From contig PLAI01000141.1 in NCBI GenBank assembly GCA_003134075.1, forward strand, positions 30,352-88,713: a stretch of DNA of 58,362 nucleotides. The letters are read 5' to 3'. Below the pieces are notes generated by a model, which saw only the letters and a program-made list of their open reading frames with translations, ran no database searches and was not told the origin of the DNA. The position numbers and the translations under genes are program-made. The stretch comes from Methylocystaceae bacterium. GTDB lineage: Bacteria; Pseudomonadota; Alphaproteobacteria; Rhizobiales; Beijerinckiaceae. Positions 11,203-16,235 of this stretch are shown piece by piece (within the stretch, counting starts at the first letter, position 1; the number at the start of each line of letters is the position of its first letter).

Positions 11203-11277
11203 GCGGGTGTAGCTCAGGGGTAGAGCACAACCTTGCCAAGGTTGGGGTCGAGGGTTCGAATCCCTTCGCCCGCTCCA
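11203..11277 (+). tRNA. tRNA-Gly (anticodon GCC), CCA encoded
   Basis: GCGGGTG acceptor stem, AACCT-T-GCC-A-AGGTT anticodon arm, GGTTCGAATCC T-arm, ends CGCTCCA. Confidence 0.97.
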
Positions 11278-11496: not shown

Positions 11497-11799
11497 ATGA
11501 ACGCCAACGCCAGCGGCCCCCGCTATTTCCTGTCCTACAGCGGGGTGAGCTTGCCGCTCAGGCTCGTTTCGCCGCTCGCCGCGAGCGAACTCCAAAATCG
11601 CAACACCTATTTTCGAGCCGTCTACGACGAAGCGGACAGACTCGTCTCCTGCGAAAAACTCGTCTATGGCGAAGTCGAGCTGACTCATCTTTATGAATAT
11701 CGGGCTGATGGCGTTCTTTCGCGCGCGCGCATCAGCATGGGCGACGACGAGCCGACCGAACTTCTGTTCGACGAGAGCGGCGCGCCCTTGCGCGCGTGA
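11497..11799 (+). CDS. Small conserved hypothetical protein (resembles DUF6156, recalled as nif-linked)
   Basis: YFLSYSGVSLPLRLVSPL ... YRADGVLSRARI; good codon usage; convergent with the AAA ATPase. Confidence 0.6.
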   Translation: MNANASGPRYFLSYSGVSLPLRLVSPLAASELQNRNTYFRAVYDEADRLVSCEKLVYGEVELTHLYEYRADGVLSRARISMGDDEPTELLFDESGAPLRA

Positions 11800-11802
11800 G
11801 CG

Positions 11803-13515
11803 CTACGCGGGCTCCAAAGCCTTCGCGCCGACGACGTCGAGCCCGCGGAAGATGGCGCAACGCCGGAACACCTCGATATCAGGCGAAACCTGCTTTTGAT
11901 GGCAAAATTTCGCCACGAGTTTCGCGAGTCCCTTGATGTCGCGCCCGGTCGCCGCCGGGAAGGTCGCGACGAGTTCGTCGATGAGCGCCTTGTCGAGCGA
12001 CAGATCGAACTGCCCCGCCATGACGCCCCAAATGCGCCGGCGCGCGTCGTCGTCGGGCGGATAATATTTGATCAACGCGATGCAGCGCGAAACGATGGCT
12101 TCGTCGATGTCGTCGACGCGATTGGTCGTGAGAAACAGCAGCCCGTTAAAATATTCGAGCACGCGCAAGAACACGCCGACGACGGCGTTCATGGCGATGT
12201 TATCGTCGCGGCGCTTGATATAGACGTCCGCCTCGTCGATCAGCATGACCGCGCCCCAGCGCTGCGCGCGCGTCAGTATCTCCTTTAACGCCGTCTCCAT
12301 CGTCGAAACGTTGAGCCCGAGTTGGCCCGAATGAACGCGGTAGAGCGGGCGCTGAATGATTTCCGAATAGACTTCCGCCGTCAGCGTCTTGCCGACGCCG
12401 GGCGGCCCCGCGCAGAGCACCGTCGTGCCGCCAGATTTTCCCGCGACGATATCGTCCATCAACATATCCATTTCGGCGGTCAATATGTCGATGAGGTCGG
12501 TTTGCTCGGGCGGCAGCACCAGCTTTTGCTTGAGTTCGGGCTGGTAGCGATAGGGCGCCATTTCGTCGACATGCACCCACAAATGGTGATGCAAGTCGAG
12601 ATGGAACATCAGAATATACGGATGCACCGGAACGCGCGTGAACATCCCTGCCGGGATTTGCTCTTGCAACTTCAGTATCTCGTCCTCGGCGGCGTAGTGG
12701 TTGCTCTTCGCCGCCTTGCGTACGAAGTGTCCGAGCACGTCGCCGGGCGCTTCGAGCGTTAGACTGCGCGCTGACAAGACGCCTTCGTCATTCACGAGTC
12801 GCGCGTCGCCGCCGCTCGTCGACAAAACGATGATGTCCTTGCGCGACCAGTCCATGTCGCGATGCGAGGCGTTGGGGTCTTCGGCGTGGAAACCCGTTCC
12901 CCTGCCGGTGAACTGCGAGCCATAGCGGCCGCGCCATTCGAAATAGGTTTCGGCCGCGGCGTCGAACGCCTCGATCAACGCCGGGGTTTCGCGCAAGAAG
13001 CCCTTGGCGGCGAGGATTTCGCTGATCGTGCGGCCGGCGACGTCGGCGGCGTTGATACGGACGGAGGTGGATTGCAGCACGCCTTTCGCGTTGGCCTTGA
13101 GTTCGACCAGAATCTTGCCGGATTCGTCGTTGGAGGTGGGAACATAGTCGAAGCGCGTGACGAGATAAGGGAGGGGCTTGCTGGCGACGCTCGCCGTGAA
13201 AAGCCAGCCGCGAATGGCGTTCGTCGTCAAATGCCGCACGAGCGCCGGAAGCGCCATTTCGAGATCGCCGGCCTCGAATCTCACGCCGTCGTTCAGCAGC
13301 GCGGCGCGAATAGTGGCGAGTTGCGCGGCCTTGGCGCGCATGTCCGGCCCCGATCCCCGGTAGCGCTCCTCCAGGAAGTCGAGTTCCTCGCTGGAGAGAT
13401 GCGACAGGTCGACCTCGACGCGCTCGTTGAACCGCAACTGTTCCGCGAGACCGGAATGCGCCGGGAAACGCTCCATCAAGGCTTCGACATGCGCCCGTTC
13501 GATCTGAATGTTCAT
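11803..13515 (-). CDS. AAA+ ATPase with uncharacterised N-terminal region
   Basis: Walker A GPPGVGKT, Walker B MLIDEAD, sensor LTTNR, SRC Arg finger, GRDIK. Confidence 0.85.
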   Translation of the reverse strand: MNIQIERAHVEALMERFPAHSGLAEQLRFNERVEVDLSHLSSEELDFLEERYRGSGPDMRAKAAQLATIRAALLNDGVRFEAGDLEMALPALVRHLTTNAIRGWLFTASVASKPLPYLVTRFDYVPTSNDESGKILVELKANAKGVLQSTSVRINAADVAGRTISEILAAKGFLRETPALIEAFDAAAETYFEWRGRYGSQFTGRGTGFHAEDPNASHRDMDWSRKDIIVLSTSGGDARLVNDEGVLSARSLTLEAPGDVLGHFVRKAAKSNHYAAEDEILKLQEQIPAGMFTRVPVHPYILMFHLDLHHHLWVHVDEMAPYRYQPELKQKLVLPPEQTDLIDILTAEMDMLMDDIVAGKSGGTTVLCAGPPGVGKTLTAEVYSEIIQRPLYRVHSGQLGLNVSTMETALKEILTRAQRWGAVMLIDEADVYIKRRDDNIAMNAVVGVFLRVLEYFNGLLFLTTNRVDDIDEAIVSRCIALIKYYPPDDDARRRIWGVMAGQFDLSLDKALIDELVATFPAATGRDIKGLAKLVAKFCHQKQVSPDIEVFRRCAIFRGLDVVGAKALEPA

Positions 13516-15128
13516 CGCCGTGTCCGTCTCTCTTCTGGATAGGGAGGCAAGGTGAGAATGCGCGCGTCTTCGACCGGCGCGCCGACCGTGAAGTGGTAGA
13601 CATCCTGGAACGCGGTTTGATCCTCCGCGAGGCCTAGCAGAGCATGAACCTCATCGTCGAAGAAGCAGCCGATGCCAGTTCCCGCGAAGCCGCTCGCGCT
13701 GGCGCCGAGATAGAGCGCCTGTCCGATGAGGCCGGCCTCCCAATGCAGGCGCCGATATGCGAAGGCGCCCTCCGCATCGAGCGTCCGGTCGAATTCGGCG
13801 ATCATCGCGACGCTGAAGCAGCCCTTACCGGAAATCGCCTGCAGACAGGCGAGACGCGTCGCCTCGCGTTGGGCGTCGCCGGCTCGCAAGCGAAACAACG
13901 GCAGCTCGCTCGGCTCGACAGGCGCCCATTCGAAATCTCGGGAACAGGCCGCGCGCAATCGCCCGGCGAGACGAGCGTCTCGGGCCAGCAGATAAAGTCC
14001 TGACTCGAGGCCCTCGACGCGGTGGACGAACAAGACGAGCGTCAGCGCCGCCGGCCATGGGAAGGCCGCGAGCAGTGGCTCCGCGCCCGGCATCGTCGCC
14101 GCGAGCATCGAGAAAAACGCGGCGCGGGGCAGCGTTGATTTTCCGTCGAAGCGTTGCGCGCTGCGTCGCCCGCGCACGACCTCGGCGATGGAGGGACCGC
14201 TTGCGCCGGCGGGCTGACACGCCTTCCGCGGCGGGGCGGCTACGCCCGCGCCGCGTGGCTTGCGGCAAAGTTGAAACGCGAGATCGACGAGCGGCCAGCC
14301 GTCGTGATCCTCGCTCAACTGGTTCGCCGCTCCATGCCAGATGCACGCCGCGTCGATAATGCCACGGGGGTCGAAAGGCGCGGGGAGCGAACGATCGACC
14401 TCGATCCAGGCCAATAGTTCGGGGTGCTCGCGCTCGCGCCGATGCGCGGCGTCTTCCCGCGCGAGGCCAAGCAGCGCGGATATTTCGTCGTCGGACGGCT
14501 CGCAAAGGACATGAGCGCGCCAGCCGAGCGCCGCCGCGGCTTGAGCCGCCGCGCCGATCGCATGGCCGGCGTCGAGCTGACAATAACGAAAGGCGCGCTC
14601 GCCATATTTCCAGGCCTCCCGCCACGCTATGGAGCCGAGCGCGAGCAGAAAACCGCCCGGCGGAAGCAGATCCGCGTCGGCGAAACTGGCGCGCGACTCC
14701 AGCGCGTGATCGAGCGGCGCGTAATGATAGAGCGCCGTCGTGTCGGCACCCACATCGCCTGCTCTCAAAATCACCCAGGCTTCCGTAGGATGCAGATTGC
14801 CGCTCGAGGGATTGTTGCGCAGCGCCCAGGTCGATCCCTCGACGCTCTTCCAGGCGCTGAGGCCGAACGCGAGTTCGAGAAACAATCCCAAGGCGTTGCG
14901 ATCGAGCTTCGCCGCGCGCGGCGCGGGACCTGGAAACGAAGGCGTGTCGCCGCCATCGTGCAGCGGAAGCGTGATCCGCGGACTGCCCACGAAGGAGCGA
15001 TAGGGCGACGGTTGCGAAGTCCAGTCGAGAAAGGCCGGACCGAGCGCATAGCGGTTCGGCGCATGTTTGGTGCGCCGGTGATAGCCTCTTATGTCGCTTG
15101 GGAGCCTATCGGCCTGGTGGATTGTCAT
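13512..15128 (-). CDS. SagB/ThcOx-type nitroreductase-fold flavoprotein (two domains)
   Basis: YHRRTKH, LRNNPSSGNLHPTEAW, REAWKYGERAFRYCQLDAGH, GRRSAQRF, GIGCFFDDEVH. Confidence 0.8.
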   Translation of the reverse strand: MTIHQADRLPSDIRGYHRRTKHAPNRYALGPAFLDWTSQPSPYRSFVGSPRITLPLHDGGDTPSFPGPAPRAAKLDRNALGLFLELAFGLSAWKSVEGSTWALRNNPSSGNLHPTEAWVILRAGDVGADTTALYHYAPLDHALESRASFADADLLPPGGFLLALGSIAWREAWKYGERAFRYCQLDAGHAIGAAAQAAAALGWRAHVLCEPSDDEISALLGLAREDAAHRREREHPELLAWIEVDRSLPAPFDPRGIIDAACIWHGAANQLSEDHDGWPLVDLAFQLCRKPRGAGVAAPPRKACQPAGASGPSIAEVVRGRRSAQRFDGKSTLPRAAFFSMLAATMPGAEPLLAAFPWPAALTLVLFVHRVEGLESGLYLLARDARLAGRLRAACSRDFEWAPVEPSELPLFRLRAGDAQREATRLACLQAISGKGCFSVAMIAEFDRTLDAEGAFAYRRLHWEAGLIGQALYLGASASGFAGTGIGCFFDDEVHALLGLAEDQTAFQDVYHFTVGAPVEDARILTLPPYPEERRTRR

Positions 15129-15140
15129 ATATGCCCCGCC

Positions 15141-15755
15141 TCAACGATATCCCTCTTCCGCCAGCACCTGCCGCACGGCGGGCCGCGTCCGCATTAGCGC
15201 GTAATGGGCGCGGCAATTGACCGGCAAATCCATCCCGATTTTGTCGGCCCAGAACTCAACATAGAACAGCGCGGCGTCGGCGATCGAAAAGGCGCCGGCG
15301 ACATAAGACTTTCCGTCGAGCCGGTCATTAACGAGCGCGAACGCCTCGGCCGCGATCCTGCGCCCGTCAGCCTTTATCGCCTCAACGGTTTGATGCTTTG
15401 AAACATATCGCTCGGGCGTGAACACGCGGCGAAAGCCCTCGCCGTGGATGTGACGCGCGCAGAAGTTCAACGTCTCCATGGCGTCATCAGCCGCGCTTTC
15501 GTCCGAAGGCAATAATTTTCGGCGAGGGTAGGCGTTGGCCAGCCATGTCGCGATGGAGACGAAGTCGGTCAGCGCGACGCCGTCGTCGCGAAGCAATGTC
15601 GGAATTGTCCCATTGGGATTGATGGCGAGATATTCGGGCGTCAAATGCTCTCCCTTCGGGAGATTGACGATATAGGCCTCGAAAACCAGGCCTATTTCCT
15701 CGAGCAGAATGTGAATGCCGGTCGAACAGGATCCTGGCACCATATAGAATTTCAT
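15141..15755 (-). CDS. Glutathione S-transferase family protein (beta-class-like)
   Basis: PGSCS N-terminus, INPNGTIPTL, FSIADAALF. Confidence 0.88.
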   Translation of the reverse strand: MKFYMVPGSCSTGIHILLEEIGLVFEAYIVNLPKGEHLTPEYLAINPNGTIPTLLRDDGVALTDFVSIATWLANAYPRRKLLPSDESAADDAMETLNFCARHIHGEGFRRVFTPERYVSKHQTVEAIKADGRRIAAEAFALVNDRLDGKSYVAGAFSIADAALFYVEFWADKIGMDLPVNCRAHYALMRTRPAVRQVLAEEGYR

Positions 15756-15803
15756 TAGGGCCCACGCTTTGATCCGCGGTTGCGATGATATTCAACTCGA
15801 TAA

Positions 15804-15819
15804 CGCAATTCGGGCGCCA
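15804..15819 (-). promoter_or_regulatory. sigma54 -24/-12 promoter for the GST-SagB-AAA operon
   Basis: Minus strand TGGCGCCCGAATTGCG: GG-N10-GC with TGGC and TTGC. Confidence 0.65.
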
Positions 15820-16127
15820 TTCATTCGACCGGAATCCGCCAGTCGCGCCAGCCGCGGCGGCGCCGTGAACGCGGAACCGCTCCGGCGGGTTGGACGCGAA
15901 AAGCCGCGCGCGGGGTATCCGAATAGGACTGATACGGATAAGCCCACGGTTTGCGTCGAGACAGAAAAGCAAAACGAAATTCACCGCGAAGCTGAGAAGA
16001 GCGCTAGGTTTAGTTTAGCCTCATATAAAATGGGCATCGACGCCTCCAAGCAAACAAGTTTGTTCGCATCGCTTCAATCATGTCGCAAATCCGCGTTTAT
16101 TGTCAGCTGGATATACTTTGTGACCCG

Positions 16128-16140
16128 CAAATAGTTGATT
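16128..16140 (-). promoter_or_regulatory. IHF binding site
   Basis: Minus strand AATCAA-CTAT-TTG is an exact match to WATCAANNNNTTR, just upstream of the sigma54 site at 16157. Confidence 0.65.
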
Positions 16141-16156
16141 TTTTTCGGCGCCACCT

Positions 16157-16172
16157 TGGCCCGCATGTTGCG
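16157..16172 (+). promoter_or_regulatory. sigma54 -24/-12 promoter for the FeSII-rubrerythrin operon
   Basis: TGGCCCGCATGTTGCG: GG-N10-GC. Confidence 0.75.
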
Positions 16173-16235
16173 TTTCGCCGCCGGAAGCAATCTAGCGCCG
16201 TCGACGGCGACGGTCGAAAAATCGGGAGGATAGCC

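What the first reader, a model, noticed from the sequence alone, without database searches (positions are those of the whole stretch)
11803..15819. sigma54-driven GST / SagB-type nitroreductase / AAA+ ATPase operon back-to-back with the FeSII fusion
SEEN: three tightly coupled genes (12-nt gap and 4-nt overlap) behind TGGCGCCCGAATTGCG, divergent from the FeSII-rubrerythrin promoter. The shared spacer has only one-mismatch NifA sites (GGT-N10-ACA at 15948-15963, TGT-N10-TCA at 16061-16076). KNOWN: SagB/ThcOx-type enzymes are FMN oxidases normally paired with YcaO cyclodehydratases and precursor peptides, and neither is visible in this window. INFERENCE: a repair or detox module (thiol/S-nitrosothiol handling, flavin redox, ATP-driven remodelling). 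The ATPase could even disassemble FeSII-locked nitrogenase, which is speculative.
Basis: partly seen in the sequence, partly recalled or inferred. Interest (0 to 1): 0.65.

Follow-up and report, generated by a model that had tools for sequence, protein, structure and literature searches.

The report
Conserved nitrogen-fixation helper gene trio
Three tightly linked genes beside the nitrogenase cluster (a glutathione transferase, a double flavin enzyme and an ATP-driven protein remodeller related to virus and plasmid proteins) travel together in nitrogen-fixing proteobacteria, nearly all known aerobes or microaerobes, and one of them is switched on with nitrogenase in Azoarcus; none has been studied, so they are good candidates for unknown helpers of nitrogen fixation.

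Summary
GST (15141-15755), a tandem SagB-like nitroreductase (13512-15128) and a 570-aa AAA ATPase (11803-13515) lie on the minus strand with a 12-nt gap and an ATGA overlap, behind TGGCGCCCGAATTGCG.

The promoter motif alone is not above chance. However, it is the only conserved block in otherwise unalignable upstream regions of four related genomes.

- **Co-inheritance:** of 50 AAA-bearing genomes, 48 carry the GST clade, 46 the SagB-like gene and 43 nifD. In an order-level background of 301 genomes the counts are 3, 1 and 41.
- **Linkage to nif:** half of the long loci have nif or fix genes within 10 kb.
- **Published expression:** the Azoarcus BH72 ortholog (azo3791, 66% identical) is induced 7.6-fold under N2 fixation, depends on NifA, and has a canonical UAS plus sigma-54 site.
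- **AAA ancestry:** it is one slowly evolving clade inside a phage, plasmid and giant-virus AAA family (PHROG 29662, AR9 gp082). Its N-domain matches no solved structure.
- **SagB-like protein:** it has no YcaO or precursor partner, so it is not a RiPP enzyme here.
- **FeSII:** adjacency to the FeSII fusion is unique to this genome, and 15 of 53 AAA genomes lack FeSII, so the FeSII-unlocking idea is weak.

Function remains unknown. The likeliest role is upkeep of nitrogenase or Fe-S proteins.

The parts
15804..15819 (-). sigma-54 type -24/-12 promoter TGGCGCCCGAATTGCG, 64 nt upstream of the GST start codon
   Evidence: The block TGGCGCC[C/T]GAATTGC is invariant at -64 to -76 in the window and in L002, L003, L004 and L022. 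The rest of the intergenic region does not align.
15141..15755 (-). Beta-class-like glutathione S-transferase, 204 aa, with Cys10 in the motif PGSCSTGIH
   Evidence: Pfam GST_N_2, GST_N_3 and GST_C_2. GstA equivalog scores 111 bits, below its cut-off of 198. Orthologs (46-84% identity) occur in 48 of 50 AAA-bearing genomes against 3 of 301 in the background.
13512..15128 (-). Tandem SagB/ThcOx-like nitroreductase-fold flavoprotein, 538 aa. The N-half carries YHRRTKH and WKYGERAFRY; the C-half carries the RGRRSAQRF FMN-phosphate motif.
   Evidence: The closest solved structure is the 511-aa tandem 'putative nitroreductase' 3EO7. Orthologs occur in 46 of 50 AAA-bearing genomes against 1 of 301.
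11803..13515 (-). AAA ATPase, 570 aa. It has an N-domain of about 335 aa with no solved-structure match, plus one classic-clade AAA module: Walker A GPPGVGKT, Walker B LIDEAD, sensor-1 TTN, Arg477, and pore loop GQLG without an aromatic residue.
   Evidence: PHROG 29662 scores 358 bits. Phage AR9 gp082 is 37% identical over 91% of the length. The diazotroph clade is monophyletic. The Azoarcus azo3791 ortholog is shown.
11497..11799 (+). DUF6156 gene, 100 aa, convergent with the AAA gene (stop codons 3 nt apart). It is a likely fourth, looser member of the neighbourhood.
   Evidence: Pfam PF19653, E 6e-40. It recurs near the AAA gene in 8-9 of 80 loci, and in L045 it forms GST-DUF6156-AAA on one strand.
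15756..16235 (.). Spacer shared with the divergent FeSII-ferritin-like fusion gene. It holds a second sigma-54-like site, TGGCCCGCATGTTGCG, at 16157-16172(+), and only one-mismatch NifA-type sites.
   Evidence: The back-to-back arrangement is absent from all 80 related loci.

Best explanation
This is a sigma-54-dependent three-gene operon (GST, tandem SagB-like flavoprotein, AAA ATPase) at the left edge of the nif cluster.

**Shown**
- The three products are a co-inherited accessory set specific to nifD-carrying Alpha-, Beta- and Gammaproteobacteria.
- In this lineage the three genes have been joined into one transcription unit. In other lineages they are scattered through nif and Fe-S assembly neighbourhoods.

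**Inferred: how it works**
- The operon is transcribed together with nitrogenase.
- The ATPase forms a ring and uses ATP to remodel or extract a protein client. The client would be captured by the ATPase's unique, highly conserved N-domain.
- The flavoprotein is translationally coupled to the ATPase. Together with the Cys-type GST it would do flavin and thiol redox chemistry on the same client or its cofactor.
- The client is most likely a nitrogenase component or its Fe-S assembly machinery (NifU, NifS or IscA type). The role would be assembly or repair under oxygen exposure.

This is not a RiPP (thiazole/oxazole) pathway and not a phage-defence system.
For: **Operon structure and promoter**
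- The 12-nt gap and ATGA overlap are confirmed. The SagB-AAA overlap is kept in 23 loci.
- The promoter is the only conserved block upstream in five genomes.

**Co-inheritance**

| Gene | AAA-bearing genomes | Order-level background |
|---|---|---|
| GST clade | 48 of 50 | 3 of 301 |
| SagB-like | 46 of 50 | 1 of 301 |
| nifD | 43 of 50 | 41 of 301 |

- Within the order sample the AAA gene is found in 3 of 41 nifD-positive genomes and 0 of 260 nifD-negative genomes (my Fisher calculation gives p = 0.0024).

**Physical linkage to nif and Fe-S genes**
- 32 of 64 long loci have nif or fix genes within 10 kb.
- Pseudolabrys has nifENX...amine oxidase-Rieske-AAA-iscA-nifU-nifS-nifT-nifB.
- A Methylococcus plasmid has iscSUA-hscBA-fdx-nifV-nifW-grxD-bolA-AAA...GST.
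- In other Methylocystis genomes the GST follows fixABCX.
- In beta and gamma genomes the SagB-like gene lies 3-6 kb from nifD.

**Published expression**
- Azoarcus BH72 azo3791 is the ortholog, 66% identical over residues 1-559.
- The paper reports +7.6-fold under N2 fixation and +3.6-fold NifA dependence, with an RpoN site and the UAS TGTGCGGCTTGCGACA (PMC3916325). Both sites sit directly upstream of the gene.

**ATPase features**
- Walker A and B, sensor-1 and the Arg finger are intact and invariant.
- The fold belongs to the classic AAA clade.
- The clade has a long stem and very short internal branches, which indicates strong constraint.
Against:
- No canonical NifA UAS is present here or in the four closest relatives, so the activator is unknown.
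- The client and the chemistry are pure inference. The N-domain has no solved-structure match.
- The pore loop lacks the aromatic residue typical of threading unfoldases.
- Half of the loci show no nif gene within 10 kb.
- Only 3 of 41 nifD-positive genomes in the order sample have the AAA gene, so it is dispensable for nitrogen fixation as such.
- The 50 test genomes are phylogenetically non-independent; many are Methylocystis or Methylosinus.
Confidence: 0.55

Rival explanations
1. The AAA ATPase takes apart the oxygen-protected FeSII-nitrogenase complex, and the GST and flavoprotein repair it afterwards.
For: - The operon is divergent from an FeSII-ferritin-like fusion gene in this window.
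- FeSII-like genes occur in 38 of 53 AAA-bearing genomes.
- The carriers that are named are aerobic or microaerobic diazotrophs (their lifestyle is my own knowledge).
Against: - The adjacency is seen only in this window, not in any of 80 loci.
- 15 of 53 AAA genomes have no FeSII-like match, including large Bradyrhizobium genomes.
- The link to FeSII is much weaker than the link to the GST (48 of 50) or the SagB-like gene (46 of 50).
- No background rate for FeSII was measured.
Confidence: 0.06
2. A RiPP-type or other peptide or cofactor maturation pathway. The SagB-like enzyme would oxidise azolines in a peptide, and the ATPase and GST would serve as accessory proteins.
For: - TIGR03605 (SagB family) scores above its cut-off, 91.6 against 78.4 bits.
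- A WKY motif and the FMN motif RRSxR are present.
Against: - No YcaO or cyclodehydratase is in the window. The single YcaO of the genome is on another contig.
- The gaps between the three genes are 12 nt and a 4-nt overlap, so there is no room for a precursor gene.
- The closest solved structure is an uncharacterised tandem nitroreductase (3EO7), not a TOMM dehydrogenase.
- The gene's conserved partners are nif, GST and AAA genes.
Confidence: 0.03
3. A general xenobiotic, oxidative or nitrosative detoxification unit (GST plus nitroreductase) that merely sits near the nif genes.
For: - GSTs and nitroreductases are classic detoxification enzymes.
- Half of the loci have no nif gene within 10 kb.
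Against: - These particular GST and SagB-like clades are nearly absent from non-carriers, at 3 and 1 of 301 genomes.
- They co-occur with nifD in 43 of 50 genomes.
- The promoter is sigma-54 type.
- The partner ATPase is NifA-dependent in Azoarcus.
Confidence: 0.1
4. A mobile-element-derived selfish or anti-phage module (IetA- or IteA-like ATPase) that hitch-hikes in nif islands.
For: - Full-length relatives occur in jumbo phages, phage-like contigs and large plasmids, next to antirestriction and methylase genes.
- There are weak IetA and IteA hits.
- A tRNA-Gly gene sits at the island border.
Against: - The IteA score is 40.8 bits against a cut-off of 510, and the IetA hits cover the AAA module only.
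- The diazotroph clade is a single, slowly evolving lineage.
- That clade is present in one copy in most genomes.
- It is regulated by NifA in Azoarcus.
- No IetS-like protease partner is present.
Confidence: 0.05

Closest known systems
PHROG 29662 / Bacillus jumbo phage AR9 gp082 and PBS1 homolog ('ATP-dependent protease', function untested), plus relatives on large plasmids and in giant viruses
   Same: - The architecture is the same along the full length: an N-domain of about 330 aa plus one AAA module.
- AR9 gp082 is 37% identical over 91% of the length, with E about 1e-100.
- The N-domain fold matches only the N-terminal parts of giant-virus AAA ATPases.
   Different: - The diazotroph clade is a separate, monophyletic lineage on a long stem that evolves slowly.
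- It is chromosomal or nif-plasmid borne, linked to nif and Fe-S genes, and NifA-regulated in Azoarcus.
- No member of the family has a known function.
SagB/ThcOx/McbC FMN-dependent azoline dehydrogenases of thiazole/oxazole peptide pathways
   Same: - The nitroreductase fold is shared, and the TIGR03605 domain scores above its cut-off.
- An FMN-phosphate motif is present in the C-terminal half.
   Different: - There is no cyclodehydratase and no precursor peptide.
- The protein is a tandem-domain form like the uncharacterised 3EO7 protein.
- Its conserved partners are an AAA ATPase, a GST and nif genes.
Nif-linked or enzyme-specific AAA+ helpers, recalled from memory: ClpX2 of the Azotobacter vinelandii nif cluster (turnover of NifB and NifEN) and the Rubisco activases CbbX and Rca
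   Same: The idea is the same: an ATP-driven remodeller encoded and regulated with the enzyme it services.
   Different: - There is no sequence relationship beyond the AAA module. The best AAA hits are Cdc48/VAT D2, Rpt, Msp1 and FtsH.
- The N-domain is unrelated, and the client is unknown.
- This comparison rests on my own knowledge and was not tested here.
Beta-class bacterial GSTs (E. coli GstA type)
   Same: - Both GST domains are present.
- The best NCBIfam hit is GstA, aligned end to end.
- A cysteine sits at position 10 in a PGxCS motif.
   Different: - The score is below the GstA equivalog cut-off, 111 against 198 bits.
- The protein belongs to a distinct clade confined to AAA- and nif-carrying genomes.

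Membership tests
SagB/ThcOx-type azoline dehydrogenase (TOMM/RiPP) | SagB-type dehydrogenase domain (TIGR03605) above the curated cut-off | tested here: met
   91.6 bits against a cut-off of 78.4, on residues 78-224.
SagB/ThcOx-type azoline dehydrogenase (TOMM/RiPP) | Encoded with a YcaO or E1-like cyclodehydratase | tested here: not met
   No YcaO is in the window. The only YcaO of the genome is on contig C309. The conserved neighbours are the GST, the AAA gene and nif genes.
SagB/ThcOx-type azoline dehydrogenase (TOMM/RiPP) | Adjacent Cys/Ser/Thr-rich precursor peptide gene | tested here: not met
   The intergenic gaps are 12 nt and -4 nt. No short-ORF candidate sits between the promoter and the GST. 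ORFs under 20 aa were not searched exhaustively.
SagB/ThcOx-type azoline dehydrogenase (TOMM/RiPP) | FMN site and catalytic Lys-Tyr motif | tested here: inconclusive
   RGRRSAQRF (C-half) and WKYGERAFRY (N-half) can be read in the sequence.
sigma-54 (RpoN) promoter | GG at -24 and GC at -12 with TGGCAC-N5-TTGCW spacing, upstream of the first gene | tested here: met
   TGGCGC-CCGAA-TTGCG lies 64 nt before the ATG. It is conserved as a footprint in five genomes.
NifA-activated promoter | TGT-N10-ACA upstream activator sequence 80-200 nt upstream | tested here: not met
   There is no exact site in the spacer. The one-mismatch sites are not conserved. The Azoarcus ortholog does have a UAS.
NifA-activated promoter | Transcript induced under N2 fixation and lost in nifA or rpoN mutants | not testable with these tools
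This has been shown only for the Azoarcus ortholog azo3791, in PMC3916325.
Classic-clade AAA+ unfoldase | Walker A, Walker B, sensor-1 and arginine finger intact | tested here: met
   GPPGVGKT, LIDEAD, TTN and R477 are invariant in 14 to 48 sequences. The fold matches Rpt, Msp1, FtsH and p97.
Classic-clade AAA+ unfoldase | Aromatic-hydrophobic-Gly pore loop 1 | tested here: not met
   The position reads G-Q-L-G (397-400) in all members. Placement of the motif is by my reading of the alignment to the canonical K-Y/F/W-V-G.
PHROG 29662 mobile-element AAA family | Full-length homology including the N-domain | tested here: met
   358 bits to phrog_29662. AR9 gp082 is 37% identical over residues 41-561. 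The tree places the nif clade inside the family.
IetA/IteA anti-phage ATPase | Score above the model cut-off and a partner protease (IetS) | tested here: not met
   NF042959 scores 40.8 bits against a cut-off of 510. The PADLOC IetA hits cover the AAA module only. No protease partner is nearby.
Beta-class GST (GstA) | Equivalog-level match to GstA | tested here: not met
   111.4 bits against a cut-off of 198. The GST fold itself is confirmed by Pfam.

The most novel reading that the evidence does not exclude
The AAA ATPase is a dedicated nitrogenase (or Nif Fe-S scaffold) 'activase' or repair motor, captured from a mobile element. It would work with its coupled flavoprotein and the Cys-GST to strip and recycle oxygen-damaged nitrogenase components. 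That would make it a missing part of the toolkit that lets proteobacteria fix N2 in air, and a candidate part for engineering nitrogenase into aerobic hosts.
Probability: 0.2. Interest if true: 0.85.

Novelty: new variant of a known kind. Interest (0 to 1): 0.62.

Why it matters
Many accessory genes in nif clusters remain without a function, and how nitrogenase is protected from oxygen and repaired is still incompletely understood (both statements are my own knowledge).

- **Breadth and conservation:** the ATPase is found in more than 560 species genomes. It is 66-89% identical across three proteobacterial classes.
- **Partners:** it is co-inherited with two redox enzymes.
- **Regulation:** it is NifA-controlled in at least one model diazotroph.
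- **Literature:** I found no functional study of any of the three genes.
- **Testability:** genetically tractable carriers exist, so the question can be tested directly. If the module supports nitrogenase in air, it would be relevant to moving nitrogen fixation into crops or aerobic chassis.
- **Evolution:** the ATPase descends from a phage, plasmid and giant-virus family that itself has no known function. A phenotype in diazotrophs could therefore give the first functional handle on that family.

Tried and rejected
**Dead ends**
- *Motif statistics.* The sigma-54 motif count in the window is not significant, so I relied on conservation instead.
- *NifA UAS.* There is no exact site, and the near-sites are not conserved.
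- *N-domain fold against the PDB.* Nothing scored better than E = 0.2. The full-length model only recovers generic AAA hits.
- *Anti-phage libraries.* Only weak hits to the AAA module appeared.
- *Literature.* Searches on nif with SagB, nitroreductase, AAA or GST found no study of these genes. The exception was the Azoarcus microarray paper.
- *Bradyrhizobium DOA9.* A sigma-54-linked GST is reported there (PMC13207237), but I could not tie it to this clade.

**Explanations considered and rejected**
- A RiPP pathway.
- A defence system.
- FeSII unlocking as the general function.

The reasons are given under the rival explanations.

**Limits of the sampling**
- The genome-contig scan kept only the best 80 of at least 566 loci, so the remainder was not inspected.
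- The two order-sample carriers with 60% identical AAA genes (G032, G201) lack the GST and SagB-like clades at my thresholds. I did not follow them up.

Full report
**1. Observation**

All three genes lie on the minus strand.
- The GST occupies 15141-15755 (204 aa).
- A 538-aa protein with two nitroreductase-fold halves occupies 13512-15128.
- A 570-aa AAA ATPase occupies 11803-13515.

The GST stop is followed by 12 nt and then the next ATG. The second and third genes share ATGA. TGGCGCCCGAATTGCG lies at 15804-15819(-), 64 nt before the GST ATG.

The window is the left edge of a Methylocystis-type nif region. From left to right it reads:
- degP and rplS;
- tRNA-Gly, DUF6156, then AAA, SagB-like and GST;
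- the FeSII-ferritin-like fusion and a ferritin-like gene;
- fixXCBA, nifW, cysE, nifV, nifS, nifU and iscA;
- further on, nifN, nifE, nifK, nifD and nifH.

No exact TGT-N10-ACA lies in the spacer.

**2. Is the promoter real?**

Counting motifs says little: the window holds 27 sites with at most 2 mismatches against 21.4 expected. Conservation says more.

Four related genomes keep the GST-SagB-AAA order (L002, L003, L004, L022). Their upstream regions do not align with the window's, except for one block, TGGCGCC[C/T]GAATTGC, at -64 to -76. The single change falls in the spacer between the -24 and -12 elements.

No NifA-type site is conserved in those regions. A sigma-54 promoter is therefore well supported, but its activator is not identified.

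**3. Distribution of the ATPase**

A scan of one genome per species found at least 566 relatives. The best 80 are 68-89% identical and span three classes:
- Alphaproteobacteria: Methylocystis, Methylosinus, Methylocella, Methylocapsa, Xanthobacter, Azorhizobium, Bradyrhizobium oligotrophicum, Pseudolabrys, Hyphomicrobium and Rhizomicrobium;
- Betaproteobacteria: Ferrovum, Gallionella, Methyloversatilis, Rugosibacter and Ampullimonas;
- Gammaproteobacteria: Methylocaldum, Methylococcus, Methyloglobulus and Methylomagnum.

Of 64 loci at least 15 kb long, 32 carry recognisable nif or fix genes within 10 kb. Examples:
- In Pseudolabrys and Xanthobacter-type clusters the gene sits between nifENX and iscA-nifU-nifS-nifT-nifB.
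- On an 89.6-kb Methylococcus plasmid it follows iscSUA-hscBA-fdx-nifV-nifW-grxD-bolA, with the GST a few genes downstream.
- In a marine gammaproteobacterium it sits between nifEN and nifHDK.

I chose 50 carrier genomes, mostly because their loci showed no nif neighbour. Of these, 43 have nifD. The seven misses are drafts or MAGs, and one of them carries nifB next to the AAA gene.

In a 301-genome sample of the window's order, nifD is present in 41 genomes. The AAA gene is present in 3, all of them nifD-positive (my Fisher calculation gives p = 0.0024).

**4. The three genes travel together**

| Gene | 50 AAA-bearing genomes | 301-genome background |
|---|---|---|
| Tandem SagB-like gene | 46 (E <= 1e-30, 42-79% identity) | 1 (the window's own genome) |
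| GST clade | 48 (E <= 1e-45, 46-84% identity, usually one copy) | 3 (the other two at 40-43% identity) |

Gene order varies between lineages:
- SagB-AAA with the ATGA overlap occurs in 23 loci of Methylocystaceae and Beijerinckiaceae.
- GST directly after fixABCX occurs in other Methylocystis genomes.
- A GST-SagB pair 3.7 kb from the AAA gene occurs in L052 and L061.
- GST-DUF6156-AAA on one strand occurs in a Burkholderiales MAG.
- In Bradyrhizobium a 539-aa FAD amine-oxidase-like gene takes the translationally coupled place upstream of the AAA gene. GST, a 106-aa gene, a rhodanese-ankyrin gene and the SagB-like gene run convergently.
- In beta and gamma genomes the SagB-like gene lies 3-6 kb from nifD.

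Co-inheritance that survives repeated rearrangement is the strongest argument that the three act in one process.

One caveat applies. The 50 genomes are related to each other and were picked by AAA similarity, so the counts are not independent events.

**5. Published expression evidence**

A microarray study of Azoarcus sp. BH72 lists azo3791, 'conserved hypothetical ATPase', among eight genes that combine an RpoN site, a NifA UAS and NifA-dependent expression. It reports +7.6-fold under N2 fixation and +3.6-fold NifA dependence (PMC3916325).

I searched the 46-nt promoter string printed in that paper's supplement in 401 genomes of the same family as L078. It has one exact match. The gene directly downstream starts MKLQIER and is 66% identical to the window ATPase over residues 1-559. 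TGGCACCAATTCTGCT and TGTGCGGCTTGCGACA sit upstream exactly as reported.

The ortholog is therefore a member of the NifA regulon in at least one diazotroph. That genome also carries a SagB-like gene (48% identical), located elsewhere.

**6. What the proteins are**

*The ATPase*
- It has one AAA module of the classic clade, with intact and invariant catalytic motifs.
- The pore-loop position reads GQLG, without the aromatic residue usual in threading unfoldases. This is my reading of the alignment.
- Residues 1-335 fold confidently (pLDDT 85) into helices and small beta-barrel-like units. This N-domain matches nothing in the PDB (best E 0.2).
- Its only structural matches are the N-terminal parts of uncharacterised AAA ATPases of giant viruses (E 1e-5 to 8e-4).

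By sequence the whole protein belongs to a large family, with 1855 clusters at E <= 1e-30. That family includes:
- PHROG 29662;
- the early gene gp082 of Bacillus jumbo phage AR9 and its PBS1 homolog, 37% identical over 91% of the length;
- phage-like contigs;
- large plasmids, where the gene lies among antirestriction, methylase and phage genes.

In a tree of 146 members the diazotroph proteins form one clade (SH-aLRT 100). The clade sits on a stem of 0.71 changes per site. Its internal branches are 0.02-0.18, against a median tip length of 0.62 elsewhere. This pattern points to a single capture followed by strong constraint.

*The SagB-like protein*
- It passes the SagB-family domain model.
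- Its closest solved structure is the uncharacterised 511-aa tandem protein 3EO7.
- It has no cyclodehydratase or precursor partner.

*The GST*
- It is beta-class-like, with Cys10, and scores below the GstA equivalog cut-off.

**7. Mechanism**

Shown:
- a coupled operon with a conserved sigma-54 promoter;
- co-inheritance of the three genes;
- restriction to nifD-carrying genomes;
- frequent placement beside nif and Fe-S assembly genes;
- NifA control of one ortholog.

Inferred:
- An ATP-driven ring captures a client through its N-domain.
- A coupled flavoprotein (SagB-like in this lineage, amine-oxidase-like in Bradyrhizobium) and a Cys-GST do redox work on the same target.
- The recurrent neighbours are NifS, NifU, IscA, ISC, Grx4-BolA, rhodanese and Rieske proteins. 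They point to Fe-S or nitrogenase protein upkeep rather than to small-molecule detoxification.

I put about 0.85 on 'nif-linked, sigma-54-driven accessory module' and about 0.35 on the upkeep mechanism. The combined figure I report is 0.55.

The FeSII idea is weak for three reasons. The adjacency is unique to this genome. 15 of 53 carriers lack any FeSII-like gene. I could not measure a background rate.

**8. Novelty**

I found no functional description of any of the three genes. Earlier notes of this scan had independently flagged the same ATPase and an orphan SagB-like gene in nif clusters of other genomes. I treated them as leads, and re-derived the ATPase's distribution and phage/plasmid kinship here.

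The new element in this window is the fusion of all three co-inherited genes into one operon. The genome-level co-occurrence and the identification of azo3791 as the ortholog come on top of that.

**9. Limits**
- Only the best 80 loci were seen.
- Genome handles are anonymous, so oxygen lifestyle could not be scored.
- The comparisons with ClpX2, CbbX and the catalytic Lys-Tyr motif rest on my own knowledge.

Noticed in passing
window 11203-11277 (+): A tRNA-Gly(GCC) gene lies between rplS and the DUF6156 gene, exactly at the left border of the nif region. The nif cluster may be an island inserted at this tRNA.
   Followed up: no
window 11797-11805: The stop codons of the convergent DUF6156 and AAA genes are only 3 nt apart, so there is no room for terminators and the transcripts must overlap.
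   Followed up: no
window 12571-12624 (AAA residues 298-315): The His-rich strand-turn-strand motif HPYILMFHLDLHHHLWVH has H298, H309 and H315 nearly invariant across the whole phage, plasmid and diazotroph family.
   Followed up: partly
L023-L033 (Methylocystis spp.); L017 and L024 come from the same MAG: Some Methylocystis genomes carry a second AAA paralogue (77-78% identical). It is not coupled to the SagB-like gene and lies about 100 nt from a divergent NifS-like cysteine desulfurase gene (33% identical to NifS). The window's own genome has a single copy.
   Followed up: partly
L095 (Methylococcus sp. EFPC2 plasmid NZ_CP070492.1, 51957-81639): An 89.6-kb non-mobilizable plasmid carries nifL, a full ISC operon, nifV, nifW, ferredoxins, grxD, bolA, the AAA gene and the GST on one strand. 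Thioredoxin, Rieske and SelO genes lie opposite.
   Followed up: partly
L084 8385-10004 and L086 7193-8809: In Bradyrhizobium and Pseudolabrys a 538-539-aa FAD amine-oxidase-like protein takes the place of the SagB-like protein next to the AAA gene. In Bradyrhizobium sp. cir1 it shares a 4-nt overlap with the AAA gene. This looks like non-homologous replacement of the coupled flavoprotein.
   Followed up: partly
L083 (own genome, contig C309): The genome's only YcaO is a 765-aa protein whose YcaO domain spans residues 402-728. Its long N-terminal extension has no Pfam match.
   Followed up: no
G331:C1:349790-350722 and G336:C8:396592-397996: In Bradyrhizobium oligotrophicum S58 strain E20 only nifD model positions 160-466 are matched. 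In one gammaproteobacterial MAG nifD is matched as two adjacent pieces. These may be frameshifts or assembly errors.
   Followed up: no
PMC13207237, table of RpoN sites: Bradyrhizobium sp. DOA9 has a GST (BRADOA9_v1_41019) with a sigma-54 site, TGGCACGTCGCTTGC, at -69. I could not check whether it is an ortholog of the window GST.
   Followed up: no
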